This document shows, one piece after another, positions 11,477 to 28,578 of a stretch of DNA of 59,702 nt. The DNA is taken from assembly GCA_964531285.1 (NCBI GenBank), contig CAZHDI010000010.1, positions 1 to 59,702 on the forward strand. Reading direction: 5' to 3'. The notes below the pieces were generated by a model that ran no database searches, was not told where the DNA came from, and saw only the letters and a program-made list of their open reading frames with translations. This stretch comes from an uncultured Alphaproteobacteria bacterium (GTDB lineage: Bacteria > Pseudomonadota > Alphaproteobacteria > JAJFIK01). Numbering within the stretch: the stretch's first letter is position 1; each line of letters opens with the position of its first letter. A program made the translations under genes and the position numbers.

Positions 11477-11632
11477 TGCATCCTCCTACGATCAGACTTG
11501 AGACCTGATCATGTCATCATATGACTGATTAACATCGCCTCTCGCGTGCCGGTACAAATTTCGAGACTTCTGCCAAATTAACCGATGGGAAAGCGTAATC
11601 CGGCAAGGTGGGCCGTGCCGATAGGAGGGCAG

Positions 11633-13114
11633 ATGAAAGTTCTGTTTGCTGCATCCGAGCTTTACCCGGTGGCGAAGACGGGCGGACTTGGCGATGTCGC
11701 CCATGCGTTACCGTGCGGGCTTCATCGTCTCGGTAAGGATATCCGGCTTGTTCTTCCGGGTTATCCCCAGGTGCTGGACAGCCTGCGAAACTGGCAGGCC
11801 GAAGAGACGGTTTATTTGAGCGCGGGGTTGACTTATCAACCGCTCCTGGGGCGGATCGATGACATTCCTTTTCCTGTTTGGGTCGTTCGCGCTGATCGTA
11901 TCTACCGGACGACTTCTGATCTTTACCCCGCCGATCCGTTGAACCGCTTTCACCGGTTCCTGACCCTGTCCCATGCCTCGGCTCATCTGGCGGCAGGTGG
12001 ATCGCGCACCGGTTGGCGCCCCGACGTTCTTCATGCCAACGACTGGCATACCGGGATGGCCTTCAATATGCTCGACGCCCTAAGCTGTGACGATGTCGCG
12101 CGTGTCTTCTCGCTTCACAATATCGCGTTTGCCGGGGATTTTCCGCTATCTTACGCGGCGCTCTTTTTATCCGAGACGGGTCCGCTGCGCGGCACGCTTT
12201 ATCGCAAATGGGACAAAGTGTCGTTCCTCGAGGAAGCTTTCATCGCTGCTGACAAGATCGTTACGGTCAGTCCGCGGTATGCGGAGGAAATAACCGGCCC
12301 GGAGTTCGGTTTTGGTTTCGAAACACTGTTGCGTCGGCGGCGCCGCGATCTGTCCGGCATATTGAACGGTGTGGATTATGGTGTCTGGCACCCTGAACAG
12401 GACCCGGCGCTCCCGTTTCCGGGTGCCTCGTTTGGCGGGGACGACAAGCGTGCCGCGAAGCGGCTCATTCAGCAGCGCTTTGGGTTGCCGCTGCGGCCCG
12501 ATTCCGTTCTATGCAGTTTCACCAATCGCCTTACGCATCAGAAGATGATCGATGTGGTGATGGCCGCGGCCGAGCGTCTGGCCGGTACGAGATTTCAATT
12601 TGTCTTCCACGGTATGGGTGAGCCTCAGTATCAGGATCACCTCAAGGCGCTGTCCGGCCGGTATCCGGAGGCAATCGCCTATGTGCCAGGGTTCAATGAA
12701 ACACTTGAGCATATGATGCTTGCGGGGGCTGATCTTTGTTTGTCACCGTCCCGATTCGAGCCATGCGGGCTGAATGCTCTTTATGCGATGCGTTATGGCG
12801 CGGTGCCGGTCGTTTGTCCGGTCGGGGGATTTCGCGATACGATCCGGAATGAGTTTTCCGTCAAGCAGAAGGCCACCGGCAATGGGTTCTATATGGACGG
12901 TGAAACCGGGGCGGATCTTGCGGACGTTCTGATCCGGATCGAACGCCTGATGGACGACGGGCCGTACTGGTCTCAGCTTGTTGATACCGTCAAACGGCAG
13001 CACTTTTCGTGGCGCCATGCGGCGCAGCGTTATGTTGCTCTGTACACCGCGGCGATCGAGGCGAGACGGCTGCGTGCGCCGGAGGCCGCCAACCGCCTTG
13101 CCCAGGCCGTGTGA
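11633..13114 (+). CDS. glgA: glycogen/starch synthase (GT5)
   Basis: MKVLFAASELYPVAKTGGLGDV (KTGGL motif) and RFEPCGL. ATG at 11633 is preceded by GGAGGG. The track ORF starts at 11585. Confidence 0.85.
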   Translation: MKVLFAASELYPVAKTGGLGDVAHALPCGLHRLGKDIRLVLPGYPQVLDSLRNWQAEETVYLSAGLTYQPLLGRIDDIPFPVWVVRADRIYRTTSDLYPADPLNRFHRFLTLSHASAHLAAGGSRTGWRPDVLHANDWHTGMAFNMLDALSCDDVARVFSLHNIAFAGDFPLSYAALFLSETGPLRGTLYRKWDKVSFLEEAFIAADKIVTVSPRYAEEITGPEFGFGFETLLRRRRRDLSGILNGVDYGVWHPEQDPALPFPGASFGGDDKRAAKRLIQQRFGLPLRPDSVLCSFTNRLTHQKMIDVVMAAAERLAGTRFQFVFHGMGEPQYQDHLKALSGRYPEAIAYVPGFNETLEHMMLAGADLCLSPSRFEPCGLNALYAMRYGAVPVVCPVGGFRDTIRNEFSVKQKATGNGFYMDGETGADLADVLIRIERLMDDGPYWSQLVDTVKRQHFSWRHAAQRYVALYTAAIEARRLRAPEAANRLAQAV

Positions 13115-15704: not shown

Positions 15705-15721
15705 CCCGCATACGGGGTGTC

Positions 15722-16684
15722 ATGCGGTTCAAGGCTTTCGATAGGCGGTGCGGAGGGCGAGGCCTTTCGCATGCCGCCATTGGTGTGATCGCCATTGCGT
15801 GTACCGCGTGTGCGTCGCCCCGTCATGACGGCGAGTCGTCTCTGGTCGCCCAGGGGATCCTGTCATCATTCGATGTTCCGCTTAAAGATTTGAGAGAGCG
15901 GCCCGAAGGAGGTGTTATGCGGCGCCTTCTGCACGGCTTTAGTGGCAGTTTGTCTGCCGGCATGCCGCTGGATCTGTCACAGGCAGAAACCACAGAAGGT
16001 GAGGGGCAGCGGGCGCGTGTCGGTAACACGCCGACCCTCAAGGCGACGGTGAAGTACAACCCTGTGAGTGCGTGGTTCGCGACGGGTACGGCCTATATCT
16101 ATCTTGATCGTGATCTTCAGGAGGAGTGGAATCCCGACTTCTCTTATGTCTTCGGGTATGACGATTGGCGCCCTTATACGTTCAGCTTGGTTTATTCGAA
16201 CTATGGCGGCAATCGCTTCAGCCCTGATCGGGCTCAAGGGGCGGAGGTGACCGAGTTCGATGAGGGTACGGTTTCACTGGGATGGAAGTTTCCCATTCCG
16301 GACCGGCTGGCAAAGCCCTTCGTTGTGGCATCAGATGGCGGTATCGGTTGCATCATCGGTTATAACGTCAGTCCACGGTATTTTGACTTGAGATCGTCGG
16401 AGAACCGGTCGTGGAAACAGGCTGCCTCGCTCGGCTGCAAATACATCATCACGGGGAATTGGTATCTCAACTGGACGGCGTTCTATTATCCCAAAGAGTA
16501 TCAACAACAGCCCTGGGACCCGGATTATACCTACGGATTTGGCTACTTCGACTGGCGGCCGGGAACGATTAGTCTTCAGTATAACAATTATTCGGGTAAC
16601 CGTTTTCCAGGGCGGCAGCGCGGTGACGAGACTGGGCGGTTCATCGATGGTGAATTGTCAGTTTCTTGGAGCTGGAGTTTCTGA
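15722..16684 (+). CDS. hypothetical outer-membrane beta-barrel protein with internal duplication
   Basis: Signal or possible lipobox (AIACTAC). Alternating aromatic/Gly-rich strands. Two homologous ~55-aa blocks (W[ND]PD[FY][ST]Y.FGY.DWRP...S[LV].Y[SN]NY[GS]GNRF). C-terminal Phe. The stop lies 2 nt before the next gene. Confidence 0.6.
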   Translation: MRFKAFDRRCGGRGLSHAAIGVIAIACTACASPRHDGESSLVAQGILSSFDVPLKDLRERPEGGVMRRLLHGFSGSLSAGMPLDLSQAETTEGEGQRARVGNTPTLKATVKYNPVSAWFATGTAYIYLDRDLQEEWNPDFSYVFGYDDWRPYTFSLVYSNYGGNRFSPDRAQGAEVTEFDEGTVSLGWKFPIPDRLAKPFVVASDGGIGCIIGYNVSPRYFDLRSSENRSWKQAASLGCKYIITGNWYLNWTAFYYPKEYQQQPWDPDYTYGFGYFDWRPGTISLQYNNYSGNRFPGRQRGDETGRFIDGELSVSWSWSF

Positions 16685-16686
16685 TC

Positions 16687-17934
16687 ATGACGACCGCATT
16701 CTCCTCCATGCTCATCGGACGGCGGAAAAACCTCCTGATCGTTGATGATAGCCAAAGCTTCCGCTTTGTTTTGAAAAAACTGCTGTCCCGCCTCGGTTTC
16801 ACGGTGTTTGAGGCCGGCGACGGCCAGGCCGCGCTTGATATTCTTGCATCCGAGGACATCCCTGTCGTGATCTGCGATTGGGAAATGCCGGGCATGGATG
16901 GTATCGAATTCTGCAGAACGGTGCGGCGTGCCTATCCGGATGACTATAAATATATCCTGATGCTGACGTCCCATGATGAAAGTACGGCCATTGAAGTCCT
17001 TTTCGATGCCGGAGCAGACGATTATATCACCAAGCCACCGGCGATGACGGCTCTGCGTGCCCGTCTTCTGGGCGCCCTGAGGATCGTTTCGCGCTATGAC
17101 GATCTGCGATGGTTCAATAGGGAGCTTCAGGAAAAGAAGGACGCCATCGATAAGTCCTTCGCCAGTATCCGGGACGATCTGCTGGTCGCTGAAACGATCC
17201 AACGTCAATATCTGCCGAATGACTTCGACCCTATTGGTGCGGTTCGCTTCGCCGGGGAATTTTTGCCCGCGTTCCATACGTCAGGCGATATCTTCAATTA
17301 CGTCCCGATCAACGAGACGCAGATTTGTCTGTTTTCGGCCGATGTATCCGGGCATGGCGTGGCGTCGGCCCTCCTTGCCATCACAATCGGTCAAACACTG
17401 TGCTTCGATGGAGATGCGTCGGATGCCACCTTTGTGGTGGATCGGGCCGGCAAGCGCAGAGCGCGTGATCCGGCAGAGGTCGTTGATTGGCTCAATCAAC
17501 GTTTCGCCAATGGCCAGACGGATCATTATTTTACGATAACCTATTGTGTTTTGGACTTGGAAACCTCTGCCCTGCGATATTGTCAGGCAGGGCATTGCCC
17601 GATCATTCGGGTGAATGCGGCCGGTGAGGCATCATTGATCGGGGCCGGGGGGCTGCCGGTTGGAATGCTACCAACCGCCCGATATGAGACCTGTACGATC
17701 GATCTTGAACCTGGTGACCGGATCTATCTCTACTCGGATGGTATCTCGGAAGCCGAGAACGAAACAGATGATATGTACGGACCTGAGTCTATGATGGCAT
17801 CCTTGTCCCAATCGCGGACGGCGTCGCTTGAAGGATCGATCGAACGGCTCTTGCAAGCGGTACAGAGCTGGCAGGCCGCACAGTCTTTCCTTGATGACGT
17901 GTCGATCATCAGTTTCGAATACCAGGCCGCATGA
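16687..17934 (+). CDS. response-regulator receiver fused to PP2C/SpoIIE phosphatase (RsbU-like)
   Basis: REC: LLIVDDSQSF ... VVICDWEMPGMDG ... DDYITKP. PP2C: SGDIFNY ... FSADVSGHGVASAL ... LYSDGISEA. Confidence 0.9.
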   Translation: MTTAFSSMLIGRRKNLLIVDDSQSFRFVLKKLLSRLGFTVFEAGDGQAALDILASEDIPVVICDWEMPGMDGIEFCRTVRRAYPDDYKYILMLTSHDESTAIEVLFDAGADDYITKPPAMTALRARLLGALRIVSRYDDLRWFNRELQEKKDAIDKSFASIRDDLLVAETIQRQYLPNDFDPIGAVRFAGEFLPAFHTSGDIFNYVPINETQICLFSADVSGHGVASALLAITIGQTLCFDGDASDATFVVDRAGKRRARDPAEVVDWLNQRFANGQTDHYFTITYCVLDLETSALRYCQAGHCPIIRVNAAGEASLIGAGGLPVGMLPTARYETCTIDLEPGDRIYLYSDGISEAENETDDMYGPESMMASLSQSRTASLEGSIERLLQAVQSWQAAQSFLDDVSIISFEYQAA

Positions 17935-17960: not shown

Positions 17961-18293
17961 ATGCTTATGACCAAGCGGCAGGAAGGCCAGCGTTTGATCC
18001 TGGCTTTGCATGAAAAACGTCTTGATGCGGCCGTTGCGGTCGATTTCAAGGAGCAGGTTGTTCAAGACGTCGACAGCATTGGGACTGATGTCGTCATCGA
18101 TCTTACGGATGTCGAATTCATCGACAGCTCAGGGCTGGGTGCTCTCGTTGCCGTGCTGAAACATGTGAGCGGGAAGGGCCGACTCGTTCTGACGGGGTTG
18201 CGCACGAAGACCGAGCAGATCTTCAAACTGACCCGCATGGACACGGTCTTCGAAATTTATCCGTCCATTGACGAAGCGCTTGAGGCGGCTTGA
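17961..18293 (+). CDS. STAS-domain anti-sigma-factor antagonist (RsbV/SpoIIAA-like)
   Basis: 110 aa. FIDSSGLGALV contains the canonical phosphorylatable Ser. Confidence 0.9.
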   Translation: MLMTKRQEGQRLILALHEKRLDAAVAVDFKEQVVQDVDSIGTDVVIDLTDVEFIDSSGLGALVAVLKHVSGKGRLVLTGLRTKTEQIFKLTRMDTVFEIYPSIDEALEAA

Positions 18294-18314
18294 TCCTTCA
18301 GCAGAGAGAGTGTC

Positions 18315-19505
18315 ATGAAAGCCATGATCCTGTGCGCCGGTCAAGGAACGCGGTTGCGCCCCCTGACTTATGCGGTGCCCAAGCCGATGGTACCCCTCGT
18401 CGACCGGCCCGTGCTGCAGTACATCGTAGAGCACTTGCGCGATCAAGGTGTCGACGATCTCGCGATAAATCTGAGTTATCTGCCGGAGGCGATTCAAAAC
18501 TACTTCCGGGATGGGTCGGCTTATGGCGTGGACGTGACATACTCCTATGAGGGACGGCTCGTCGATGGCGAGTTTAAGGGCGCGGCCATCGGGTCGGCCG
18601 GAGGGCTGCGAAAGGTTCAGGACGAGCTTGATTTCTTTGATGACACGTTTCTGGTGCTCTGCGGCGATGCGGTTATCGATCTCGATATTCGCGCGGCTGT
18701 CCGGCAACACAAAGAGCGCCGGGCCTTAGCGACGATCGTGCTCGCGGATGTGCCGCAGCATGCCGTCTCGAAATACGGGATTGTCGATATGGCCAGTGAC
18801 GGCCGTATATCGGCGTTTCAGGAGAAGCCGGAGATTGCCGAGGCCGTCAGTACGCTGGCAAATACCGGTATTTACATCTTCGAGCCGGAAATCTTCGACC
18901 ATATCCCGACCGGACAAACCATGGACTTGGGCGGGGATCTGTTTCCAAAGCTTACCGAGGGCGGACATGCGATCTATGGCGGGGTCGCCCCCCTTACTTG
19001 GCTCGATATCGGAACCCTTCAAGACTACGCCGCCGCTTCTTTTCGTCTGTTGACTGACCGGTCGGCCGGTATTGATATTCCGGGGCGTGTCGTCGATGAT
19101 CGTTTGCGCACGGGGCCACATGTCACCATGGATCGGAAGGCGGTTACGCTTGAGGGACCGATCTATTTAGGCGGTGGGACGGTTATCGAGGCCGGGGCCC
19201 GCATTATCGGACCGGCGGTCATCGGGCAGAATTGCCGCATCAGCGCGAATGCCGTCGTGCACCAGTCGGTCTTGGGCGATCATGTTCATGCCCGGTCCGG
19301 TGCGATGATCTCGAATGCGGTCATTTCCGGTGGATACTTCATCAATGAAGCCGGTGAATTCATTCATCTGCGCAAATCGGGACCTGTCGGCGACGTGCGT
19401 GAGCCGGCCGGTTCCGGCGCCGATGATATGGCTAGTGACGTTGTCGGCTCTGCGGACGGCGACAGCGCCGTCATCCGTCGGCCGCGACAAGCAAGCGGCC
19501 ATTAG
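18315..19505 (+). CDS. NDP-sugar pyrophosphorylase (sugar-1-phosphate nucleotidyltransferase with C-terminal left-handed beta-helix)
   Basis: MILCAGQGTRLRPLTYAVPKPMVP nucleotidyltransferase signature. C-terminal hexapeptide-like repeats (IGPAVIGQNCRISANAVV). Confidence 0.85.
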   Translation: MKAMILCAGQGTRLRPLTYAVPKPMVPLVDRPVLQYIVEHLRDQGVDDLAINLSYLPEAIQNYFRDGSAYGVDVTYSYEGRLVDGEFKGAAIGSAGGLRKVQDELDFFDDTFLVLCGDAVIDLDIRAAVRQHKERRALATIVLADVPQHAVSKYGIVDMASDGRISAFQEKPEIAEAVSTLANTGIYIFEPEIFDHIPTGQTMDLGGDLFPKLTEGGHAIYGGVAPLTWLDIGTLQDYAAASFRLLTDRSAGIDIPGRVVDDRLRTGPHVTMDRKAVTLEGPIYLGGGTVIEAGARIIGPAVIGQNCRISANAVVHQSVLGDHVHARSGAMISNAVISGGYFINEAGEFIHLRKSGPVGDVREPAGSGADDMASDVVGSADGDSAVIRRPRQASGH

Positions 19506-19506
19506 G

Positions 19507-19974
19507 ATGATGCCGGCCGGGCCGATCGCACAATACCGGATCGCCAGCACATTTCATGCTGTTCGCACCTTGCTCACTGATCTGGGTGACCGTCTTTCCG
19601 GGCAGGTCGATGAAGCAACACTTGCGCGGCTTGAACTATGCTTGGCCGAAGCGCTGAACAACATAGTCGAGCACGGATATCAGGAAAATCCGAATGGCGA
19701 GATCCTGGTGGATACGGACTGGGACGGCGAGGCGGTGCGGACCCGTATCACGGATTTTGGCCGATCCAGTCAAGACGCAAACGGAGCATATCCGGAACCG
19801 GTCCAGGGGCAGCCGGACGATTTGAAAGAGGGTGGGTATGGACTGTCCCTCATTCATACGATTGCCTCGCGCATTGACTATAACTCCGAGGGCGGCCGGA
19901 ATACAACGACGATCTGGCAATCCATAGGGGCAGTGTACCCCGATACGCAGACGGAACGCTTCCCGCAAGCTTAG
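19507..19974 (+). CDS. GHKL anti-sigma-type serine kinase (RsbW/SpoIIAB-like)
   Basis: N-box EALNNIVEHG and G-box GGYGLSLI. ATG at 19507 lies 1 nt after the upstream TAG. The track ORF (19315) overlaps the previous gene out of frame. Confidence 0.85.
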   Translation: MMPAGPIAQYRIASTFHAVRTLLTDLGDRLSGQVDEATLARLELCLAEALNNIVEHGYQENPNGEILVDTDWDGEAVRTRITDFGRSSQDANGAYPEPVQGQPDDLKEGGYGLSLIHTIASRIDYNSEGGRNTTTIWQSIGAVYPDTQTERFPQA

Positions 19975-20064
19975 CGTTTCAAGCTGTGGGTGTTTGTATC
20001 AAGCCGGCGGTCCGGCATGCCGTTTCGTATATCCCCCAACCGGTTTATGCGTCCGGCTGAACCC

Positions 20065-20408
20065 GATGAACTCTTTCCGCTAATACGCGGCCGGATTGCA
20101 AAGACCCATTTGCGGGACGGCGGCGGCGTCGATGCGGTCAGTACGTGACGGTGACGTCATCGGGACGTCGTGCTGACGGACTGGTCCATGCCGGCTATGG
20201 GCGGTTTTAGGGCAACTGTCCGGATACGCCAATATAAAGCCGAGCACGACTACAGGCCGGCGAAAATCCTTGATCTGAGTGCCAATGCCATAACCGAGTA
20301 ACGGGAAGAAGGTCTTGCGGTTGGAATGGACCGGTATCTGAGCAAGCCTATTGTGAAGGGGGATCTGCTCGCCGCGTCTACGCCGCCCAACATCCATCGT
20401 TCGCTTAA
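20065..20408 (+). pseudogene. decayed response-regulator receiver domain (three in-frame stops)
   Basis: One frame reads ...GVDAVST*R*RHRDVVLTDWSMPAMGGFRATVRIRQY...ILDLSANAITE*REEGLAVGMDRYLSKPIVKGDLL. The REC hallmarks (acceptor D, S/T, K) are kept. The frame is broken by TGA at 20146, TGA at 20152 and TAA at 20299, and the N-terminal DD strand is missing. Confidence 0.6.
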
Positions 20409-20471
20409 CCCTCTATTCTCCGCTGGCGTCTTATCCTTTGAGGGCAGGACATTATCGACCGGCGGGCGAGG

Positions 20472-22313
20472 GTGCGCGTGACGCAGTTTTACTTTGAGGC
20501 CTATGAGGACCGGGTGCCGGACCCACCGGTGCCCTACTCGATGATACGCGAGATGCTTTGGCAGTTTCTCGCGACCCTGAGTCTTGCAGTCGGAGGATGG
20601 TACATCCTGTGGCGGTGGACCGAGTCGCTCAATATGGACGCACTTTGGTTTGCCATTCCGCTCGCGACTGCCGAGACTTGCGCATTTATCGGTCTCATCC
20701 TGTTCTATATCAATCTGTGGTCGACAAGAGATCCGGAGCGTCAGCCTGCGCCCTATCTGAAAAGCGAATGCGGTATCGCCAACAGTGCGCCGGATGAGCC
20801 GATCTCGGTCGATATCTTTTTTACGAGCTATGATGAGGATCCCGAACTTGTTCGGTTGAGCCTTCGGGACGCGAAGCGCGTCTATTATCCGCATCCCATC
20901 GATATTCGCATTCATGTCCTGGACGATGGTCGCCGTGAGGCCATGCGGACGGTTGCCGAGGAAGAGCAGGTCGGCTACATCACCCGATCGAACAATGTTG
21001 GGTTCAAGGCTGGAAATCTGCGTAATGGCCTTGAGAAAACATCGGGTGATTTCATCGTGATCTGCGACGCGGACACCCGCCCGTTTCCCACGCTTCTTGA
21101 TCACACCCTGGGGTATTTCAGAGATCCAAATGTCGCTTGGGTTCAAACCCCGCAATGGTTTTTCGACCTTCCTGCAGGCCGTACCCTTGACCGAATCTGG
21201 GAGGATTATGCCGGTCCGCTCGGCCGGGTCGCGGGAAAAGGTATTCAGTCGATCTTTGGGCAGATCACTTTGGGCAAGGATCCTTTCGATAACGATCCCA
21301 AGATGTTTTATGATGTGATCCAGCGCCGCAGGAATGCGCATAACGCCTCATTCTGTTGCGGGGCAGGGTCGATCCATCGCCGGGAAGCCGTGATGGATGC
21401 CGCTTTGAAGGCCTATGCTAACCAAATCGGCCGGTCGGTCGACACGGTGGCCCAAACGGTGGACGATCCGGACCTGCGCCGGGCTCTGCGCAGCGAAATG
21501 GTTCGGGCTCATGTTCGCGACACGGAGTTTACCCCCTACAAGTTTCACGTTTCCGAGGATATCTACACGTCAATTGTGCTCCACGGTGACAAGGATCGGC
21601 GCTGGAAGTCCGTTTTTCATCCAGATGTCGAAACCAAGATGCTCTCGCCGCAGGACCTGCAAGCCTGGACCGTACAGCGCTTCAAATATGCCGGCGGCTC
21701 CCTCGACATCGCTCTTCATGACAACCCGATCCTGACATCCGATATGACGGTCGGCCAGAAACTCATGTATGCCGCGACGTTCTGGTCTTATCTGTCGGGG
21801 CTTTGGAACATCGTGTTTTTATCCGCACCGATCATTTATTTGTTTACCGGTATCGCTCCGGTGGAGGCCTATTCCCACGACTTTTTTGTCCGCATTATTG
21901 CCTTTCTGATTCTGAATGAACTGGCCATGATGGTCGGCACTTGGGGCGTGGAAAACTATCGCGGCAAAGCATATTATCTGGCGTTCTTCCCCCTCAACCT
22001 TCGCGCGCTCTGGACCGTTCTGCGCAGCCAAAAGATCAAGTTCCCGACGACGCCTAAGGAGCGTCAGGACGGGACCTTCCTTTTTCTTGTCCGCCCCCAG
22101 CTGGCTGTCATGATCCTGACGGCCATTGCGATCGTCTACGGCTTCTTCTCATGGCTACAATCGGGGTCCTATAGCGATCTGAGCGCCTATATCGCGAATG
22201 TATTCTGGGGACTGAACAACATTCTTTCATTGGGCGTGATCGTGACAGCCGCACTTTGGAAGCCGCCGACTGAGAAGCCCGAGTTCGCGCCTCTGGCGCT
22301 GAAAGAGGTTTGA
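20472..22313 (+). CDS. processive family-2 glycosyltransferase, cellulose-synthase (BcsA)-like, no PilZ domain
   Basis: TM helices flank a GT-A domain: FFTSYDEDP, VLDDG, ICDADT, QTPQWF, FCCGAGSIHRR, SEDIYTS (the TED equivalent), QRFKYAGG (the QxxRW equivalent), FPTTPKE. GTG start. Ends right after the last TM helix. Confidence 0.9.
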   Translation: MRVTQFYFEAYEDRVPDPPVPYSMIREMLWQFLATLSLAVGGWYILWRWTESLNMDALWFAIPLATAETCAFIGLILFYINLWSTRDPERQPAPYLKSECGIANSAPDEPISVDIFFTSYDEDPELVRLSLRDAKRVYYPHPIDIRIHVLDDGRREAMRTVAEEEQVGYITRSNNVGFKAGNLRNGLEKTSGDFIVICDADTRPFPTLLDHTLGYFRDPNVAWVQTPQWFFDLPAGRTLDRIWEDYAGPLGRVAGKGIQSIFGQITLGKDPFDNDPKMFYDVIQRRRNAHNASFCCGAGSIHRREAVMDAALKAYANQIGRSVDTVAQTVDDPDLRRALRSEMVRAHVRDTEFTPYKFHVSEDIYTSIVLHGDKDRRWKSVFHPDVETKMLSPQDLQAWTVQRFKYAGGSLDIALHDNPILTSDMTVGQKLMYAATFWSYLSGLWNIVFLSAPIIYLFTGIAPVEAYSHDFFVRIIAFLILNELAMMVGTWGVENYRGKAYYLAFFPLNLRALWTVLRSQKIKFPTTPKERQDGTFLFLVRPQLAVMILTAIAIVYGFFSWLQSGSYSDLSAYIANVFWGLNNILSLGVIVTAALWKPPTEKPEFAPLALKEV

Positions 22314-22315
22314 CA

Positions 22316-23644
22316 ATGACATTCACCAAAGGCGTTATGCGTGCCCGCAGTCACATCGTCTTTCTGGTCGGTCTGTGTGCGGCCTTCACACTGATTGTCC
22401 ATCTCGATGCTCTTGGTGCCCGGCAGCGTCCGATCTCGATTGATGTCTTCGAGATTGCTACATCGGAGCAGTCGGCTCCGGCGAAGCCGGTCGGTGCACT
22501 GACCGCTCAGGAAGAAGCGGCTGCGCAAACAGCATGGGTTTACTTCGAGAATAACCTCCAACCGGAGACAGGATTGGTAAACTCCGTTGACGGATATCCG
22601 TCGACGACCATGTGGGACCAGGCCTCCTACATGCTCGCGCTGATTTCGGCGTATCGGCTTGATGTCATCGACTCGAGCATGTTCGACCGGCGAATGACGA
22701 GCCTTTTGACGGCCCTTGCGGCGCTTCCCTTGTTCGACGGCGCGCTCCCGAACAAGGCGTACTCAACCACGTCACTCGCCATGACCGATTATGAAGGTCA
22801 AGTCAGTGAACGGGGCATTGGCTGGTCGGCGCTGGATATCGGACGGATCATGGTGCCGCTCAATATTGTGGTCTGGAATTATCCGCGCTATGCCGGCCTC
22901 GTCAAAGACGTCGTCCAGCACTGGCAGATCGACGCTATGCTGGATGATGGATTTATGATTGGAACACGGACCGATGCGAGTGACAGAACGGAGCGCGTTC
23001 AGGAGGGTCGGATCGGATACGAGGAGTATGCCGCCGCGTCTCTGGGGCTTCTGGGCTATGACGCGAAGCGAGCCGGCAGCTACACGGACTTTCTCCAATT
23101 CGAGCCGATTTACGGTGTCGATGTACCGGTCGATGTGCGCGACGTCAGGAGCTATGGGGCTCATAACTATGTGGTGAGTGAGCCCTACATTCTGGCCGCA
23201 CTGGAATATGGGTGGACATCGGATATGCAGGAATTTGCCTATCGCGTTTATGCGGCGCAGGAACAGCGCTTCCGCCGGACAGGACAACTCACTGCGGTCA
23301 GTGAGGACAATGTCGATCGGCCGCCGTATTTTGTCTACAACACGGTTTTTGCGAATGGGCGGCGCTGGAACACGATCTCCGAGGACGGAGAAGATGTGAG
23401 CGACTTACGCTCTGTTAGCACTAAGGCAGCATTCGGTTGGTACGTTCTTTATCCTAATGACTATACCACCCGGCTCGTCGAAAAGGTCATTGCGCTGTCC
23501 GATCCGGAGAAGGGCTTCTATTCCGGGTGGTATGAAGTGCTCGATGAACCGAACACGGCCATCACGGCCAACACCAATGGAATCATTCTGCAAAGCTTGC
23601 ACTTCAAGAAGTTCGGCAAGCTCGTTCAGCTTTATACGGACTAA
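22316..23644 (+). CDS. periplasmic (alpha/alpha)6-glycosidase-like / DUF3131-like protein, paralogue 1
   Basis: Signal anchor. AWVYFENN...TGLVNSVDGYPSTTMWDQASY ... LPNKAY ... QEGRIGYEEYAA ... AHNYVVSEPY ... PPYFVYNTVF. ATG lies 2 nt after the GT2 stop, with RBS GAAAGAGG. Confidence 0.75.
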   Translation: MTFTKGVMRARSHIVFLVGLCAAFTLIVHLDALGARQRPISIDVFEIATSEQSAPAKPVGALTAQEEAAAQTAWVYFENNLQPETGLVNSVDGYPSTTMWDQASYMLALISAYRLDVIDSSMFDRRMTSLLTALAALPLFDGALPNKAYSTTSLAMTDYEGQVSERGIGWSALDIGRIMVPLNIVVWNYPRYAGLVKDVVQHWQIDAMLDDGFMIGTRTDASDRTERVQEGRIGYEEYAAASLGLLGYDAKRAGSYTDFLQFEPIYGVDVPVDVRDVRSYGAHNYVVSEPYILAALEYGWTSDMQEFAYRVYAAQEQRFRRTGQLTAVSEDNVDRPPYFVYNTVFANGRRWNTISEDGEDVSDLRSVSTKAAFGWYVLYPNDYTTRLVEKVIALSDPEKGFYSGWYEVLDEPNTAITANTNGIILQSLHFKKFGKLVQLYTD

Positions 23645-23656
23645 AGGATAGCGCGG

Positions 23657-25153
23657 ATGCGGGGCAGTCTGAAACAGGCGGCGAACGCTTTGTCTTGTAC
23701 ACGCCGCATTGGTGCGCTTGGTGCGCTCGCTCTGCTCATTGCCTGTACCGGACCCGATGCGTGGTTACTTGACGAAAGTGATGACCTCATACCGCACGCG
23801 GCTGACCTGAGACGGGATGGCTTCGGTCCGCGACGGTCTTATCCAACGCGGCGGGGGCCGTTGACCGAGCGCGAGATGGACATGGCTCGGATCGCCTGGA
23901 CCTATTTCGAGAATAACATGCAGGAGGCAACGGGCCTCGTAAACGCCGTGAATGATTATCCGTCTACAACTCTTTGGGATACAGCATCCTATCTTGGCGG
24001 CATGGTGGCGGCCTACGAATTGGGCATCATCGATCGAAACGAGTTTTCACGGCGTCTTGTGAAGATACTCGGTACACTGAACAGTATGGACTTCTTCCGA
24101 GGGGAGCTTCCCAATAAGGTCTACAATACCCAAACGGCCGAGAAGGTGAATTACGCCAATCAACCGGGCGAGATCGGGTTCTCGGCGCTCGATCTTGGCC
24201 GGCTGCTGATTTGGCTCGAGATCATCAAGAACCGCTATCCGGAACGGGCCAATGCGATCGATACCTTTGTCCTGCGCTGGAATTTCTGTAACGTCGTCGA
24301 TAATCGCGGCATGATGTACGGCGCCATCGTCGGCCCTGATAATGAGACACAGTATGTCCAGGAAGGCCGGCTCGGTTATGAAGAGTATGCGGCGAAGGGA
24401 TTTCAGCTTTGGGACATCGATACCGATCTTGCCTCCCGTCCGGAACCCTACAGCATTCTGACGACGTATGGCGTCAAAGTCCCCTATGATTCGCGGGATC
24501 CACGCACGTTGGATGCGCATAACTATGTGGTGTCGGAAAGTTATGTGCTGGACGGTATTGAGCTGAACTGGGATCACGCAGACGACACGACGTCCAGCGA
24601 CCGGCATCACAGCGATCGTATCGCCGAGAAGTTCGGCAATCTCATCTATGAAGCCCAGGTTGCCAGATACCGGGCGACAGGCATCTTAACGGCGCGTACC
24701 GAGCATCAACTCGCCGAGCCGCCCTACTTCGTTTATGATACGATCTATACGGACGGCTATGCGTGGAACACTATCACCGAAGACGGAAAGCATGTCCCGC
24801 AATTCGCTGCGATAGCGCTAAAGGGGGCCCTTGGGATGTGGGCGGTTTGGGAGACGGAGTACACGGACCTCCTGTTCGATACGATTGCCGATCTTTATCA
24901 TCCTGAGAAGGGATTCTACGAGGGCATCTTTGAAAATGGCAGTGGGGTGATCGAGACATATACGTCCAATAATAACGGTATCATGCTCGAGGCGCTTCTT
25001 TATAAGGCGCAGGGGAAGCTTTTACGTCCGTCAACGGAGAAGACAATCTGGGATCAGACGATGCGGGACAACTTCCTGTGGGACCGGCACAATGGTAAAG
25101 CCAAGTGCTATCCGCGCAAGAGGTTGGAGGGCACGAATGAGCCGGAGAATTAA
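23657..25153 (+). CDS. DUF3131-like lipoprotein, paralogue 2
   Basis: Lipobox LLIAC. AWTYFENN...TGLVNAVNDYPSTTLWDTASY ... QEGRLGYEEYAA ... AHNYVVSESY ... PPYFVYDTIY. Confidence 0.75.
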   Translation: MRGSLKQAANALSCTRRIGALGALALLIACTGPDAWLLDESDDLIPHAADLRRDGFGPRRSYPTRRGPLTEREMDMARIAWTYFENNMQEATGLVNAVNDYPSTTLWDTASYLGGMVAAYELGIIDRNEFSRRLVKILGTLNSMDFFRGELPNKVYNTQTAEKVNYANQPGEIGFSALDLGRLLIWLEIIKNRYPERANAIDTFVLRWNFCNVVDNRGMMYGAIVGPDNETQYVQEGRLGYEEYAAKGFQLWDIDTDLASRPEPYSILTTYGVKVPYDSRDPRTLDAHNYVVSESYVLDGIELNWDHADDTTSSDRHHSDRIAEKFGNLIYEAQVARYRATGILTARTEHQLAEPPYFVYDTIYTDGYAWNTITEDGKHVPQFAAIALKGALGMWAVWETEYTDLLFDTIADLYHPEKGFYEGIFENGSGVIETYTSNNNGIMLEALLYKAQGKLLRPSTEKTIWDQTMRDNFLWDRHNGKAKCYPRKRLEGTNEPEN

Positions 25154-26546
25154 AGTACTCTGGCTGGTTGTTGTCCTGTCAATGGGTGTGTCGTTGACCG
25201 GATGCGGTGTTGCCTATCGCGGACTGGAGACAGCAGCCACGAGCCTTGCGCAGTCGTCGCTCTGGTATGTTGGCCGCCGAGGACCGCTGTCGGAGAAGGA
25301 ACTGTCCTGGGCTCGAACGGCCTGGACATATTTCGAGAACAATTACCATCCGCAAACCGGGCTCGTCAATGGCGCCGACCGCTACCCGGTCGTCAGTATG
25401 TGGCATGTCGGCGATTATCTCGCCGCGCTCCATAGCGCCCGCCAACTTGGTATCATTGAAGAGCGGATATACGATCAGCGTTTGAGTGCTGTCCTGGCCC
25501 GTCTCTCCGGACTGCCGCTGGCCTTCGGCGAATTGCCGAACACGCTCTACAATGCGCAAAGCGGAGTGATGGTGAACTATGCCAATCAACCGGAGGAAAT
25601 CGGTTGGGCGATTATCGATATTGGCAGGGTCCTCATATGGCTGAGTATCGTGAAAGCGGATGTTCCTCATTTCGCGGAGTATATCGACAGGATTGTCTTG
25701 CGATGGTCGTTCTGCAAGGCCCTTGACGATGAGGGGCGTCTTCAAAGCGCCGTAAAGATCAATGACCGCCTACAGACGATCCCTGAGACAACCATCGGAT
25801 ATACCGATTACGCACAAACGGGCTTCAGGCTCTGGGGACTTTCGACGGTGCCCCGCTTGATGTCAGACCCGGATAACCGCGTCGATATTTTTGGTATCTC
25901 CTTTCCGCTCGACAGTGATTGGGCCCGCCAGTCCGGTACCTACGGGGCGCTGGTATCGGCGCCGTTTCTTTATGCGGGCCTTGAGACACATTGGGATTTT
26001 CCGGTGGCGTTGGGAGCGGCCGATGCTCAGAGTGCCTTCTTTCGTGATCTTGCCAACCGGGTCTATGATGTTCAGGAAAGCAGGTTCGAGCTTGAAGGTA
26101 TCTCAACAGCACGAACCGACCATCAACTCAGCCGTCCGCCATTCTATGTGCAGGATTCCATTTTCGGGGCCGGTTATCCGTGGTCGACATTATCCGATAA
26201 CGGGGAGAACAGACCAGACCTCGCCCTTGTGTCGACACGGGCCGTATTCGGCATGTGGGCACTGTGGAATACATCCTATACCGATCATCTCATGCGGCTG
26301 ATTGAGCCGCTTTTCGATCCGCAACGCGGTTGGTTCGAGGGTCGATACGAGAACAGCGCGGGGTATGAACCCATGATCACCTTATCGACCAATACAATGG
26401 TGCTCCAGGCGCTTGCCTTTAAACAGAACGGTCGCCTGTTTCAGCCGGTTCGCAAGAAGAGCCTCATCGGTCATGTCCTATCCGATGCATTCCGGGTTAC
26501 CGGACAGTGTCTTGCGAATCGTCGGGAGGATGACGACGATGCGTAA
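25137..26546 (+). CDS. DUF3131-like lipoprotein, paralogue 3 (most divergent)
   Basis: Lipobox SLTGC. AWTYFENN...TGLVNGADRYPVVSMWHVGDY. Conserved acidic blocks are altered (PETTIGYTDYAQ, LVSAPF). The start overlaps the paralogue 2 stop by 17 nt. Confidence 0.75.
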   Translation: MSRRIKVLWLVVVLSMGVSLTGCGVAYRGLETAATSLAQSSLWYVGRRGPLSEKELSWARTAWTYFENNYHPQTGLVNGADRYPVVSMWHVGDYLAALHSARQLGIIEERIYDQRLSAVLARLSGLPLAFGELPNTLYNAQSGVMVNYANQPEEIGWAIIDIGRVLIWLSIVKADVPHFAEYIDRIVLRWSFCKALDDEGRLQSAVKINDRLQTIPETTIGYTDYAQTGFRLWGLSTVPRLMSDPDNRVDIFGISFPLDSDWARQSGTYGALVSAPFLYAGLETHWDFPVALGAADAQSAFFRDLANRVYDVQESRFELEGISTARTDHQLSRPPFYVQDSIFGAGYPWSTLSDNGENRPDLALVSTRAVFGMWALWNTSYTDHLMRLIEPLFDPQRGWFEGRYENSAGYEPMITLSTNTMVLQALAFKQNGRLFQPVRKKSLIGHVLSDAFRVTGQCLANRREDDDDA

Positions 26547-28578
26547 TGGCGTACTGATTGTCCTGACCTGGCTTTTCGTTTCGATGCCATGGTCCGGTTC
26601 GCTGTCTTGGGCGCGGACGGACGCTTATCTCGATGTCTTGCGTCAGGGGGTGGTGCTGTCACAAGTCGGCCGGTGGGAGCAGGCCGCTGATCATTGGGCA
26701 AAGGGCCGGACCGCGCTCGATGCGACGGAAGGAATGTCGGATCAGGATCTGGCGCTGCTTGGCATTCTCCAGGCAATGGCTCTTGAGAAGACAGGCAATG
26801 CTCAGGCCTACGAGGTCTGGACGGATGCCCTGGCGGCCTTTCTGAAAGCGGGAACGCGATGGGAGGATTTTCGCGCCACGCTGGCAGGTCACTTGCGCGG
26901 AATGCAAATTTCGCGCGGATCCACCTTCTCGACTGAGGGCGTCATTACCGCCGATCAGAAGCCCGGTGACTTAATCCTTTCAAGCTTGGATTCCCTTCTT
27001 CAGTTCACGACTTATGACGGGCCAGCCCCGGGGCTTCAGCCGGTTCAACATCGCGTGGAAGAGCCTCTGACGGTTGCCCGATCGTATTTTCCGAGACCAC
27101 CCGCTATCTTGGCTGAGGACAATTCCACGGGCCCCAGGGGGCGGACCATCAGCGCTCCACAGGCTGGCGAGGGCGAGCGGTCGTCATCGAGAGTGATGCG
27201 CGGCGTACCCGAGATAGGGCCGGATGAGCTGAGTTCTGATCCAACGCAAAATCAATCGAAAACGGACGAATTTTCAGCAGGGTCGGGGGCACTCAATGGC
27301 GAGAGCGCCTTCAGTATGCGTTTCCCACCGGCGAGAAGCGGGGCCGAGGGTCCATCCGGGATGCTTTCGGGACCGACGCTAAGCCGTCGCCTCGATCGTC
27401 GTTCAGCCGGTGCTTTGAGCGAGGCTGATCGGGACGCCGCACGCCGGGCCTGGCGGTATATCGTAATGAACCGTCAGTCGAACACGGGGCTCGTGAACTC
27501 GGTTCAGACGTATCCCTATACGACCATGTGGGATCTGGGCAGCAGCATTGCGGCGATCGTCAGTGCTTTCCGGATTGGGATCATTGATGAGTGGGTGGTC
27601 GAAGACTATCTCGATAGAATGCTCCGCACATTAAGCGACATACCGCTTTATGACGGTGTCCTTCCGAACAGGGAATACGATACGCGTTCGGCGATGATGA
27701 CCGACCTGCGCAATCGGCAATCGTCCGTCGGCAGCGGGTATTCGTCCATCGATGTGGCGAGGCTATTGGTCTGGCTGGCTGTCATCAAGGAGCATTTTGA
27801 CACTTTTGCCGAACGGGTTGAGTCCATCGTGAGCCGATGGGATCTGACGCGCGTACATGACGGCGACGAATTTTACCGGGAGCTTCTCACGGCGGAAGGC
27901 ATCGACCGCAAGCAGGAAGGCCGGATGGGATATGAGCAGTATACGGCTCTTGCGTTTGCCCATTGGGGGATCGTTGTCCCTGGTGCGCATGACACTATGG
28001 AGTCGCGAACCGTGCGCCTCCACGATATTCCGATTCTCAAGGATACCCGGACGCCGAACCACCTCAATCTGGAACCGTTCCTGCTGGCCTTGATGGAGTT
28101 CGAAACACGGATGCCCGTGGTCGAAACACAGGCGGCGCGTCTGCTTGCGGCGCATGTAAAGCGGTACGAAGATACCGGCATTCTGTCCCTGTATACGGAG
28201 GATTCCATCGATCAAGCGCCGTGGTTTCTGTACAACACGGTCCTCGCAGATGCAGGGCCCTGGCGCTGCTTGACCTCCGCCGGGAAAGAGGCCGACCGGT
28301 GTCAAAGGCTGTCGACAAAGGCGGCGTTTGCGGCAGAGGCAGTCTTCGATTTGGACTACACGCGCATCGCCCGGCAACAGGTCATCGAGGGTGTGGATAT
28401 GCGCCGGGGCTATTATGCGGGCATCTATGAAGACGGAACGATGAACCGTGTTTTGACGGTCAATACCAATGCCATCATTCTCGAAGCGCTCGCTTTCAAA
28501 GCAGGTGGATCGAGGGCGTTCCTCGCCAATGCGTATGCGGATCCTGGCACAGCGACGGGCAGCCGTGCAGCGCGCTGA
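26539..28578 (+). CDS. DUF3131-like protein, paralogue 4, with N-terminal helical (TPR-like) region and low-complexity linker
   Basis: Signal peptide (SGSLSWA), ~130 aa helical region, ~150 aa Pro/Ser/Gly-rich linker. Then AWRYIVMN...TGLVNSVQTYPYTTMWDLGSS ... QEGRMGYEQYTA ... APWFLYNTVL. ATG overlaps the previous stop (ATGCGTAA). Confidence 0.75.
   Translation: MRNGVLIVLTWLFVSMPWSGSLSWARTDAYLDVLRQGVVLSQVGRWEQAADHWAKGRTALDATEGMSDQDLALLGILQAMALEKTGNAQAYEVWTDALAAFLKAGTRWEDFRATLAGHLRGMQISRGSTFSTEGVITADQKPGDLILSSLDSLLQFTTYDGPAPGLQPVQHRVEEPLTVARSYFPRPPAILAEDNSTGPRGRTISAPQAGEGERSSSRVMRGVPEIGPDELSSDPTQNQSKTDEFSAGSGALNGESAFSMRFPPARSGAEGPSGMLSGPTLSRRLDRRSAGALSEADRDAARRAWRYIVMNRQSNTGLVNSVQTYPYTTMWDLGSSIAAIVSAFRIGIIDEWVVEDYLDRMLRTLSDIPLYDGVLPNREYDTRSAMMTDLRNRQSSVGSGYSSIDVARLLVWLAVIKEHFDTFAERVESIVSRWDLTRVHDGDEFYRELLTAEGIDRKQEGRMGYEQYTALAFAHWGIVVPGAHDTMESRTVRLHDIPILKDTRTPNHLNLEPFLLALMEFETRMPVVETQAARLLAAHVKRYEDTGILSLYTEDSIDQAPWFLYNTVLADAGPWRCLTSAGKEADRCQRLSTKAAFAAEAVFDLDYTRIARQQVIEGVDMRRGYYAGIYEDGTMNRVLTVNTNAIILEALAFKAGGSRAFLANAYADPGTATGSRAAR

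What the first reader, a model, noticed from the sequence alone, without database searches (positions are those of the whole stretch)
22316..28578. Four tandem, translationally coupled paralogues with unequal conservation of acidic blocks
All four share the same collinear motifs: W-x-Y-[FI]-x-x-N, T-G-L-V-N, Y-P-x-[TV]-[TS]-[ML]-W-[DH], L-P-N, [IL]-D-[ILV]-[GA]-R, G-Y-[ET]-[EDQ]-Y and P-[PW]-[YF]-[FL]-[VY]. From memory this looks like DUF3131, which I recall being grouped with six-hairpin glycosidases. That is a recollection and not a search result. Paralogues 1 and 2 keep QEGR[IL]GYEEYAA and AHNYVVSE[PS]Y. Paralogue 3 has PETTIGYTDYAQ and LVSAPF, so Glu residues are lost at both blocks. Paralogue 4 has QEGRMGYEQYTA and LNLEPF. 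Targeting also differs: signal anchor (P1), lipoboxes LLIAC (P2) and SLTGC (P3), and a cleavable signal plus extra domains (P4). The pattern suggests subfunctionalisation into catalytic and binding or scaffold copies, or a hetero-oligomeric periplasmic machine.
Basis: partly seen in the sequence, partly recalled or inferred. Interest (0 to 1): 0.7.

Follow-up and report, generated by a model that had tools for sequence, protein, structure and literature searches.

The report
Four ancient DUF3131 glucan-processing paralogues
Four neighbouring genes encode periplasm-facing barrel proteins of an uncharacterised family (DUF3131) related to the enzyme domain that cyclises bacterial beta-1,2-glucans; they sit behind a cellulose-synthase-like gene in a widespread, unstudied sugar-polymer operon, and two copies look catalytic while two look degenerate.

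Summary
Four collinear genes (22316-23644, 23657-25153, 25137-26546, 26539-28578) all match Pfam DUF3131 (E 1e-102 to 1e-146). Their junctions are +12, -17 and -8 nt, and the first starts 2 nt after a BcsA-like GT2 gene. They are not recent duplicates. Each belongs to its own orthogroup, kept in the order P1-P2-P3-P4 across phyla.

The P1 model is an (alpha/alpha)6 barrel. Its 19 best PDB matches are all beta-1,2-glucan enzymes. By sequence only GH189, the cyclising transglycosylase domain of cyclic glucan synthase, is detected (hhalign E about 3e-10). The GH189 nucleophile Glu aligns with a conserved DUF3131 Glu (E330).

P1, P2 and P5 keep every conserved carboxylate. All 40 P3 orthologues lack D101 and E289. 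The window's P3 has also lost E236, and E330 is Asp. P4 evolves fastest. It carries a system-specific N-terminal module that vibrios encode without the barrel.

The cluster also holds GlgA, GlgP, an outer-membrane-barrel candidate, a partner-switching module and a nucleotidyltransferase. It points to regulated synthesis of a periplasmic or secreted beta-glucan. Chemistry and linkage remain untested.

The parts
22316..23644 (+). P1: DUF3131 barrel with an N-terminal signal anchor (442 aa). It is the universal partner of the GT2.
   Evidence: PF11329 E 3e-146. AF2 pLDDT 90.9, helix 2-36 followed by a barrel. Foldseek top hits are all SGL-clan enzymes. A GT2 lies directly upstream in 73/76 loci. 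All conserved carboxylates are 100% conserved.
23657..25153 (+). P2: DUF3131 lipoprotein (498 aa, lipobox LIAC). It is the most conserved copy.
   Evidence: PF11329 E 6e-124. Lipobox in 38/46 orthologues. Mean pairwise identity 64.6% in the same genomes. Carboxylates 97-100% conserved. Subfamily signature R-T-E-H-Q at positions 328-332.
25137..26546 (+). P3: DUF3131 lipoprotein (469 aa, lipobox LTGC), sister of P2, with a degenerate active-site set.
   Evidence: PF11329 E 4e-102. D101 and E289 are absent in all 40 orthologues, and W100, H283 and N419 are mostly lost. E330 is E in 50% and D in 47%. The window copy also has T236, D237, D330 and Q341.
26539..28578 (+). P4: signal peptide, a conserved N-terminal module of about 200 aa, a low-complexity linker, and a divergent DUF3131 barrel (679 aa).
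   Evidence: PF11329 E 9e-102 at ORF residues 342-697. Mean identity is only 35.7%. Positions 282-283 are deleted, and position 237 is Q in 88%. The N-terminal module has only 77 cluster representatives in 1.84 billion, either fused or stand-alone, with no Pfam match in those scanned.
20472..22313 (+). BcsA-like membrane GT2 synthase without a PilZ domain. It has QRFKY in place of QxxRW.
   Evidence: Pfam GT2. Below the cut-off for CelA (211.7 against 699 bits). Best PDB sequence matches are BcsA 7LBY and 4HG6. The motifs are conserved in 77 orthologues.
19507..19974 (+). RsbW-like anti-sigma-type kinase (HATPase_c_2).
   Evidence: The start lies 1 nt after the stop of the upstream gene.
18315..19505 (+). 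Sugar-1-phosphate nucleotidyltransferase with a left-handed beta-helix domain.
   Evidence: Pfam NTP_transferase 2.7e-52. No NCBIfam equivalog is reached.
17961..18293 (+). STAS anti-sigma-factor antagonist.
16666..17934 (+). Response-regulator receiver fused to a PP2C (SpoIIE) phosphatase.
15722..16684 (+). U320: conserved secreted protein with no family match. It has two internal repeats and ends in a C-terminal SWSF, so it is a candidate outer-membrane beta-barrel.
   Evidence: No Pfam or NCBIfam hit. Sequence. 40 homologues, 34 ending in F, including one beside opgC on a Salmonella plasmid (E 8e-54).
13221..15704 (+). Alpha-glucan (glycogen) phosphorylase.
11585..13114 (+). Glycogen synthase GlgA.

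Best explanation
The four genes are the extracytoplasmic processing module of a conserved envelope system that makes a beta-glucan.

Proposed pathway:
1. Glycogen phosphorylase and a sugar-1-phosphate nucleotidyltransferase supply an NDP-sugar.
2. A BcsA-like GT2 without PilZ polymerises the sugar and translocates the chain.
3. DUF3131 barrels act on the emerging chain in the periplasm.
4. An RR-PP2C / STAS / RsbW-like partner-switching module controls the system.

DUF3131 is a sister family of GH189. It has the same (alpha/alpha)6 architecture, and it keeps a Glu at the position of the GH189 nucleophile. I therefore predict anomer-retaining chemistry, meaning transglycosylation (cutting, cyclising or branching) or retaining hydrolysis, rather than the inverting chemistry of GH144/162/192-194.

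Proposed roles of the four copies:
- P1 is anchored in the inner membrane and always sits next to the GT2. It is the core enzyme.
- P2 is a lipoprotein, the most conserved copy, with the distinct pocket signature R-T-E-H-Q. It is a second active enzyme with a different specificity.
- P3 is the lipoprotein sister of P2. It has lost several invariant pocket residues in every orthologue, and more in this clade. It most likely binds glucan without normal catalysis.
- P4 is mainly a carrier of a system-specific N-terminal module (scaffold or adaptor). Its barrel is dispensable in some lineages.

Status of each step:
- Shown: family, fold, orthogroups, residue conservation, gene linkage.
- Inferred: catalysis, retaining mechanism, periplasmic location, division of labour.
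- Weakly inferred: a beta-1,2 linkage.
For: Family and fold:
- PF11329 matches all four proteins.
- The P1 model has pLDDT 90.9.
- The top 19 Foldseek PDB hits are all GH144, GH192, GH194, GH189 or GH162 (E 1e-10 to 2e-6).

Sequence link to GH189 only:
- HMM against 8WY1: E 4.8e-5 and 1.7e-5.
- hhalign: Prob 96.5-96.8, E 8.5e-10 to 2.6e-10, collinear over 336-346 columns.

Residue mapping:
- E330 pairs with the WGISE nucleophile (TiCGS E1442; identified) at high posterior.
- D174 pairs with the VDSGN Asp.
- Secondary-structure elements of P1 and of a GH189-like model are one-to-one collinear. This places the acid/base at E236/E237, and it places the nucleophile 8 residues after the long helix in both models.
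- In inverting relatives this site holds water. In EeSGL1 the weakly aligned residue is a Ser.

Conservation per orthogroup. Evolutionary rates. Tree.

Gene linkage:
- GT2 lies directly upstream of P1 in 73/76 loci, and the partner-switching genes recur in most of the 80 loci.
- OpgC, the OPG succinyltransferase, sits in the enterobacterial version (PMC12974863).
- DUF3131 genes form a co-expression module under salt shock in Shewanella (PMC8371737).

Targeting signals.
Against: - No biochemical data exist for any DUF3131 protein in the literature I could search.
- The acid/base assignment rests on topology and spacing. hhalign gave a different pairing there (D249) at low confidence.
- The GH189 His pair that tunes the nucleophile is N/T in DUF3131.
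- The only other non-beta-1,2-glucanase branch of the clan (Group 4, PgSGL4) had no detectable activity on beta-1,2-glucan and Sop2-5, and no substrate was found (PMC12102758). Clan membership therefore does not guarantee the substrate.
- The GT2 is BcsA-like, and some loci carry GH9 and GH2 genes. This fits a beta-1,4 or mixed polymer as well as a beta-1,2 one.
- If E237 rather than E236 is the acid/base, then P4 and P5 (Gln there) would be the inactive copies.
Confidence: 0.55

Rival explanations
1. All four barrels are active enzymes with different specificities, for example chain cutting, branching, cyclising and trimming. On this reading P3 and P4 use a shifted catalytic set rather than being pseudoenzymes.
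For: - P3 keeps E230, D174, E297 and E407 at high frequency, and E236/E237 in about 90% of orthologues. E330 is always E or D except in one orthologue.
- P3 has its own conserved features: R405 100%, H331 100%, E403 100%.
- Catalytic positions are known to vary between families of this clan (PMC12102758).
Against: - D101 and E289 are invariant in P1, P2 and P5 and are replaced by non-acidic residues in all 40 P3.
- W100, H283 and N419 are also mostly lost in P3.
- P3 and P4 evolve faster than P1 and P2 in the same genomes: 49% and 36% against 57% and 65% identity.
- Vibrios keep the P4 N-terminal module without any barrel.
Confidence: 0.2
2. The polymer is cellulose-like (beta-1,4) or mixed-linkage. 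On this reading the DUF3131 proteins play BcsB- or BcsZ-like roles, as obligate periplasmic partners and editing endoglucanases of a PilZ-less BcsA, and the system has nothing to do with beta-1,2-glucan.
For: - The best solved relatives of the GT2 are BcsA (E 1e-33), and its best NCBIfam match is CelA.
- GH9 genes sit in the Desulfoluna and Ferrimonas clusters.
- BcsZ-type barrels appear among the lower Foldseek hits.
- P4's N-terminal module plus a candidate outer-membrane barrel recall BcsC.
Against: - The GT2 scores far below the BcsA cut-offs, and it replaces QxxRW by a conserved QRFKY.
- No BcsB, BcsC or PilZ was detected among the cluster genes that I scanned.
- Every top structural match of P1 acts on beta-1,2-glucan. 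GH8 and BcsZ score 5-6 orders of magnitude worse.
- OpgC co-occurs in enterobacterial versions.
Confidence: 0.15
3. The barrels are degradative glucanases used to harvest external glucans, as GH144 enzymes are in Bacteroidota. Their position next to the GT2 would then be incidental.
For: - GH144, GH162 and GH192-194 are hydrolases (PMC12102758).
- GH2 and GH9 genes are nearby in some genomes.
Against: - The GT2 is directly upstream and co-oriented in 73/76 loci, and in this window the junctions are tiny or overlapping.
- No sugar-uptake genes were seen in the clusters I examined.
- An NDP-sugar-forming enzyme and a regulatory module are co-conserved.
- P1 is membrane-anchored.
Confidence: 0.05

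Closest known systems
[quoted passage not shown]
   Same: - GH189 is the only solved family detected by sequence.
- Secondary structure is collinear.
- The nucleophile Glu column is conserved (E330).
- The VDSGN/ALDIGR Asp is conserved.
- Both work together with a GT2-type glucan synthase.
   Different: - DUF3131 proteins are separate, exported proteins, whereas by established knowledge the CGS domain is cytoplasmic.
- They match PF11329, not PF10091.
- They lack the long alpha4-alpha5 insertion.
- The His-His pair is N/T.
- The partner GT2 is BcsA-like rather than the CGS synthase domain.
- There is no GH94 domain. An alpha-glucan phosphorylase is present instead.
Clan GH-S endo-beta-1,2-glucanases: GH144 (CpSGL 5GZK, XcSGL 8XUL), GH162 (6IMU), GH192 (8XUJ), GH194 (8XUK)
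   Same: - These are the best structural matches to the P1 model.
- They share the (alpha/alpha)6 barrel.
- An acidic residue is conserved at the start of helix 4 (D174, matching D149 of EeSGL1 and E142 of CpSGL).
   Different: - No sequence-level hit was found.
- They are inverting enzymes with water at the position where DUF3131 and GH189 carry a Glu.
- They are degradative, and as far as I know are not linked to a synthase gene.
OPG system OpgH / OpgG / OpgD / OpgC of Enterobacteria
   Same: - Same logic: an inner-membrane GT2 plus periplasmic glucan-processing proteins.
- OpgC is present in the Salmonella and Klebsiella versions of the cluster.
- There is a hint of a link to osmotic or salt response.
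   Different: - The GT2 is not OpgH (17 bits against a cut-off of 884).
- The processing proteins here are (alpha/alpha)6 barrels. OpgG and OpgD belong to a different family, GH186 (PMC10514313).
- Control is by a partner-switching module.
Bcs cellulose secretion complex (BcsA, BcsB, BcsZ, BcsC)
   Same: - A BcsA-like synthase.
- A periplasmic (alpha/alpha)6 protein.
- A candidate outer-membrane barrel and a helical adaptor module.
   Different: - No PilZ, BcsB or BcsC was detected.
- The QxxRW motif is altered.
- The barrels belong to the SGL-type clan, not GH8.
SGL-clan Group 4 (PgSGL4, Photobacterium gaetbulicola)
   Same: It is also an SGL-type barrel that is not a demonstrated beta-1,2-glucanase, it is multi-domain and secreted, and its function is unknown (PMC12102758).
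   Different: PgSGL4 has beta-propeller and CBM-like domains and forms a tiny group. I did not test whether it is related to DUF3131 more closely than at clan level.

Membership tests
Pfam PF11329 (DUF3131) | Whole-protein score above the gathering threshold (20.3 bits) with full-length profile coverage | tested here: met
   Scores of 487, 414, 342 and 341 bits, covering profile positions 2 to 365-367 of 367, for P1 to P4.
SGL clan (Nakajima 2025) | Single (alpha/alpha)6 barrel superimposable on GH144, GH162 and GH189 | tested here: met
   AF2 model with pLDDT 90.9. The top 19 Foldseek hits are all clan members, with TM 0.54-0.62.
SGL clan (Nakajima 2025) | Conserved general-acid Glu (XcSGL E239, CpSGL E211, TiCGS E1356) | tested here: inconclusive
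   Topology and spacing place it at E236/E237 of GYEEY. The hhalign posterior is low there and suggested D249, which I rejected because of its conservation pattern and the secondary structure.
SGL clan (Nakajima 2025) | Conserved Phe near the catalytic water (XcSGL F286) and stacking Tyr (XcSGL Y367) | tested here: inconclusive
   The candidates are Y291 (Y or F in all groups) and Y341 (82-100%). The alignment register is not resolved.
GH189 | Nucleophile Glu (TiCGS E1442, WGISE motif) | tested here: met
   E330 aligns with it at high posterior. Conservation is P1 100%, P2 97%, P5 100%, P4 82%, and P3 E 50% / D 47%.
GH189 | His-His pair next to the nucleophile (H1536/H1537), the long alpha4-alpha5 insertion, and a PF10091 match | tested here: not met
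   N419/T420 align with the His pair. The insertion is absent. Only PF11329 is hit.
GH189 | Anomer-retaining transglycosylation of beta-1,2-glucan | not testable with these tools
   This needs enzyme assays.
BcsA cellulose synthase (for the partner GT2) | Equivalog score, a C-terminal PilZ domain, and the QxxRW motif | tested here: not met
   TIGR03030 scores 211.7 bits against a cut-off of 699. There is no PilZ. QRFKY is conserved in 77 orthologues.
OpgH/OpgG OPG pathway | An OpgH equivalog and an OpgG/D (GH186) periplasmic protein | tested here: not met
   MdoH scores 17 bits against a cut-off of 884. None of the cluster proteins scanned had an MdoG-type Pfam hit.

The most novel reading that the evidence does not exclude
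DUF3131 is a new family of anomer-retaining beta-glucan transglycosylases, the long-sought structural and mechanistic sibling of GH189. Together with a QRFKY-type BcsA-like synthase it would form a third, unrecognised route to periplasmic or cyclic beta-glucans. That route would be switched on post-translationally by a partner-switching module that draws on glycogen. Pseudoenzyme paralogues (P3, P4) and an outer-membrane barrel (U320) would hand the product across the envelope.
Probability: 0.3. Interest if true: 0.8.

Novelty: new variant of a known kind. Interest (0 to 1): 0.6.

Why it matters
Periplasmic and cyclic beta-glucans shape osmoadaptation, symbiosis and virulence. Only the OpgGH, Cgs and NdvB-type routes are known (my own knowledge, and PMC11842490).

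This cluster occurs in at least 453 species representatives and on Salmonella, Pantoea and Klebsiella accessory DNA. No member has been studied in the searchable literature.

The review PMC11842490 states that a clan for GH189 awaits another family of similar structure with a retaining mechanism. DUF3131 is a concrete candidate, and it can be tested with simple enzymology.

The nested series P1, P1-P2, P1-P2-P3, P1-P2-P3-P4 also offers a natural experiment on how catalytic and degenerate paralogues are added to a polysaccharide machine.

Tried and rejected
- phmmer of P1 against PDB sequences found nothing relevant.
- The exact-sequence look-up of P1's own contig found nothing.
- Literature searches for DUF3131, PF11329 and IPR021478 gave only incidental mentions. 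A search on partner switching plus glucan found no study of this cluster.
- The word-index homologue search with the P4 N-terminal module returned nothing. The exhaustive search was used instead.
- The promoter and terminator scan gave counts equal to the shuffled expectation, so it was uninformative.
- hhalign of the C-terminal halves alone was not significant (E 0.28-0.39). The full-length alignment became collinear only after I excised the GH189 insertion, or used natural short GH189-like proteins.
- hhalign paired the GH189 acid/base with P1 D249. I rejected this for two reasons. D249 is D in only 47% of P2, and the pairing would align a P1 helix with coil in the GH189-like model.
- The idea that the four copies are recent tandem duplicates is rejected by the orthogroup analysis and the tree.
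- I could not obtain residue-level structural superpositions, because no coordinates or Foldseek alignments are returned.


Full report
**Observation**

The window carries four co-oriented ORFs between 22316 and 28578. All four proteins match Pfam PF11329 (DUF3131) over the whole profile, with E-values of 3e-146, 6e-124, 4e-102 and 9e-102. NCBIfam has no model for them.

Reading the junctions gives these starts:
- P1 at 22316, 2 nt after the stop of the upstream GT2 gene.
- P2 at 23657, 12 nt after the P1 stop.
- P3 at 25137, overlapping P2 by 17 nt, with GGAGG upstream.
- P4 at 26539, inside ATGCGTAA, an 8-nt overlap, with GGGAGG upstream.

The products of exactly these coordinates exist as called proteins in the public collection (442, 498, 469 and 679 aa). 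Translational coupling is a reasonable inference from this layout. It is not demonstrated.

**Fold and relatives**

An AlphaFold2 model of P1, built on 24 sequences, has mean pLDDT 90.9. It shows an N-terminal helix (residues 2-36) followed by an alpha-rich barrel.

Foldseek against the PDB gives 19 top hits, and all of them are enzymes acting on beta-1,2-glucan (E 1e-10 to 2e-6, TM 0.54-0.62):
- GH144: 4QT9, 3EU8, 5GZH/5GZK, 5Z06, 4GL3, 8XUL.
- GH192: 8XUJ.
- GH194: 8XUK.
- GH189: 8WY1, 8RF0, 8RF9.
- GH162: 6IMU.

Other six-hairpin enzymes follow only after these. They include alpha-mannosidase, YihS and GH8/BcsZ.

By sequence, only GH189 is reached:
- DUF3131 profiles hit 8WY1 at E 4.8e-5 and 1.7e-5.
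- A 200-sequence DUF3131 alignment against an 87-sequence GH189 alignment gives hhalign probability 96.5% and E 8.5e-10.
- After excising the GH189-specific insertion, or using 25 natural GH189-like proteins that lack it, the alignment is collinear over 336-346 columns (E 2.6e-10 and 3.3e-10).

GH189 proteins carry PF10091. One of 120 also has a PF11329 hit on record.

**Catalytic residues**

From the TiCGS paper (PMC10834661) and the alignment of NdvB to 8WY1, I located three residues in TiCGS:
- the acid/base E1356, in LLASEAR;
- E1400, in MFEY;
- the nucleophile E1442, in WGISES.

In the profile alignments the nucleophile column pairs with P1 E330 (T-A-V-S-E-D) at high posterior. The AHHQG His pair pairs with N419/T420. 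The VDSGN Asp pairs with D174; this Asp is the candidate general base D149/D148/E142 of GH192/GH194/GH144 (PMC12102758).

The acid/base region aligns poorly. A model of a GH189-like protein (P0151) shows that secondary-structure elements correspond one-to-one with P1.
- In both models the nucleophile lies 8 residues after the end of the long helix.
- In P0151 the acid/base sits at the N-terminus of the helix that follows a beta-hairpin. By that topology and by spacing, its P1 counterpart is E236/E237 of GYEEY. An insignificant but consistent HMMER stretch points the same way.

hhalign's alternative, D249, is poorly conserved in P2 and contradicts the secondary structure, so I rejected it.

The exact register there is unresolved.

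Inverting relatives have water at the nucleophile position. In EeSGL1 the (weakly) aligned residue is a Ser. A conserved Glu there therefore argues for retaining chemistry.

**Orthogroups**

A pattern scan of one genome per species found 453 species with a P1 relative, and 80 loci were fetched. I called ORFs in these loci and searched them with a DUF3131 HMM, which gave 200 barrels. They fall into five groups: P1 (82), P2 (46), P3 (40), P4 (17), and a fifth type, P5 (15).
- Each group has 100% NJ bootstrap support.
- The split (P2+P3) against (P1+P4+P5) has 97% support.

Gene order is nested and fixed: P1 alone, P1-P2 or P1-P5, P1-P2-P3, or P1-P2-P3-P4. The paralogues are therefore ancient, not local duplications.

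In the same 17 four-copy genomes, mean pairwise identity falls in this order:

| Copy | Mean pairwise identity |
|---|---|
| P2 | 64.6% |
| P1 | 56.5% |
| P3 | 49.4% |
| P4 | 35.7% |

Residue conservation per group:
- **P1, P2, P5.** D101, D174, E230, E236, E289, E297, E330, E407 and N419 are essentially invariant (97-100%).
- **P3.** D101 and E289 are absent in all 40 orthologues. W100, H283 and N419 are mostly lost. E330 is Glu in 50% and Asp in 47%. E236 and E237 are kept in about 90%.
- **The window's P3.** It and its two closest relatives have additionally lost E236 (T, T, K). The window copy also has D237, D330 and Q341.
- **P4.** It lacks positions 282-283. Position 237 is Q in 88%. D174 (70%) and E407 (41%) are variable.

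P1/P4/P5 and P2/P3 also differ in pocket-adjacent signatures: V-S-E-D-N against R-T-E-H-Q at positions 328-332, and S against E at position 403.

**Targeting and extra module**

Targeting is conserved within each orthogroup:
- P1: uncleaved-looking hydrophobic anchor in 80/80, preceded by a conserved RARSH motif.
- P2: lipobox in 38/46.
- P3: lipobox in 33/40, often as GCGV.
- P4: cleavable-type signal peptide plus an extension of about 290 aa.

The first 200 aa or so of mature P4 form a module with these properties:
- Only 77 cluster representatives exist among 1.84 billion proteins.
- It is always N-terminal.
- It is either fused to a DUF3131 barrel or stand-alone.
- None of the representatives scanned had a Pfam match for it.

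In Vibrio and Photobacterium the gene after P3 encodes this module without any barrel. This suggests that the barrel of P4 is the dispensable part.

**Context**

The GT2 (20472-22313) is BcsA-like, but it is not BcsA:
- It has no PilZ domain.
- It scores 211.7 bits against a cut-off of 699.
- It carries QRFKY instead of QxxRW, and this is conserved in 77 orthologues.
- It lies directly upstream of P1 in 73 of 76 informative loci.

The genes upstream of it in the window are, in order:
1. GlgA.
2. Glycogen phosphorylase.
3. U320.
4. Response regulator fused to a PP2C phosphatase.
5. STAS protein.
6. Sugar-1-phosphate nucleotidyltransferase.
7. RsbW-like kinase.

U320 is a conserved secreted protein with internal repeats and a C-terminal SWSF. 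It has 40 homologues, 34 of which end in F.

The partner-switching genes recur in most of the related loci. Some relatives add GH2 and GH9 genes. A Salmonella IncFIB plasmid and a Klebsiella accessory block add OpgC. DUF3131 genes form a co-expression module under salt shock in Shewanella piezotolerans.

**Interpretation**

The best reading is a regulated envelope system for a beta-glucan, in which DUF3131 barrels process the chain outside the cytoplasm.
- P1 and P2 look catalytic.
- P3 looks like a degenerate, probably binding-only sister of P2.
- P4 looks like an adaptor.

The Glu shared with the GH189 nucleophile makes retaining transglycosylation the most specific prediction. The linkage is open. 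The structural neighbours and OpgC favour a beta-1,2 or OPG-like product. The BcsA-like synthase and GH9 neighbours favour beta-1,4. None of this chemistry has been tested.

**Novelty**

No paper in the searchable library characterises DUF3131 or this cluster. The review PMC11842490 notes that a clan for GH189 awaits another family with similar structure and a retaining mechanism. DUF3131 is a candidate for that family.

Noticed in passing
window 15722-16684: U320 is a conserved secreted protein with no family match. It has two FGYxDWRPxTxSLxYxNYxGNRF-like repeats and ends in SWSF. It has 40 homologues in related loci, 34 ending in F, and one lies next to opgC on a Salmonella plasmid. It looks like an outer-membrane beta-barrel that belongs to the system.
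   Followed up: partly
window 26620-27228 (P4 N-terminal module); L062:14132-15118 and other Vibrio/Photobacterium loci: The module of about 200 aa at the N-terminus of P4 exists as a stand-alone gene after P3 in vibrios. It has only 77 cluster representatives in 1.84 billion proteins, and no Pfam match in those scanned.
   Followed up: partly
window 20472-22313: The GT2 subfamily replaces the processive-synthase motif QxxRW with QRFKY. This is conserved in 77 orthologues. It also lacks PilZ, so control may come from the adjacent STAS / RsbW / PP2C module instead of c-di-GMP.
   Followed up: partly
window 12000-28000: The whole cluster has lower G+C (0.54-0.58) than the flanks (0.60-0.64). Together with the patchy taxonomic spread and plasmid-borne copies in Salmonella and Pantoea, this hints at horizontal transfer.
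   Followed up: no
window 6031-11476 (- strand): This stretch encodes an RTX-repeat protein with a DUF4114 domain (9584-11476), followed by an ABC transporter (7353-9506) and a HlyD-type membrane-fusion protein (6031-7356). It appears to be a type I secretion unit next to the glucan cluster.
   Followed up: no
window 19975-20471: A 498-nt non-coding gap separates the RsbW-like gene from the GT2. Relatives carry a GH2 gene at this position (L001, Thiothrix). A weak terminator-like hairpin lies at 20005-20022.
   Followed up: no
L006, L008, L013, L026, L030, L032, L038, L045 and others: A fifth orthogroup (P5) is found in the Methylococcales, Methylobacillus, Halothiobacillaceae and related loci. 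It is signal-anchored, has a full carboxylate set but Gln at position 237, replaces or supplements P2, and is usually followed by U320.
   Followed up: partly
L086 (Salmonella plasmid CP053577) 13861-16973: In the enterobacterial version a globin gene and a large response-regulator / hybrid kinase gene follow the three DUF3131 genes. This suggests gas or redox sensing as an input.
   Followed up: no
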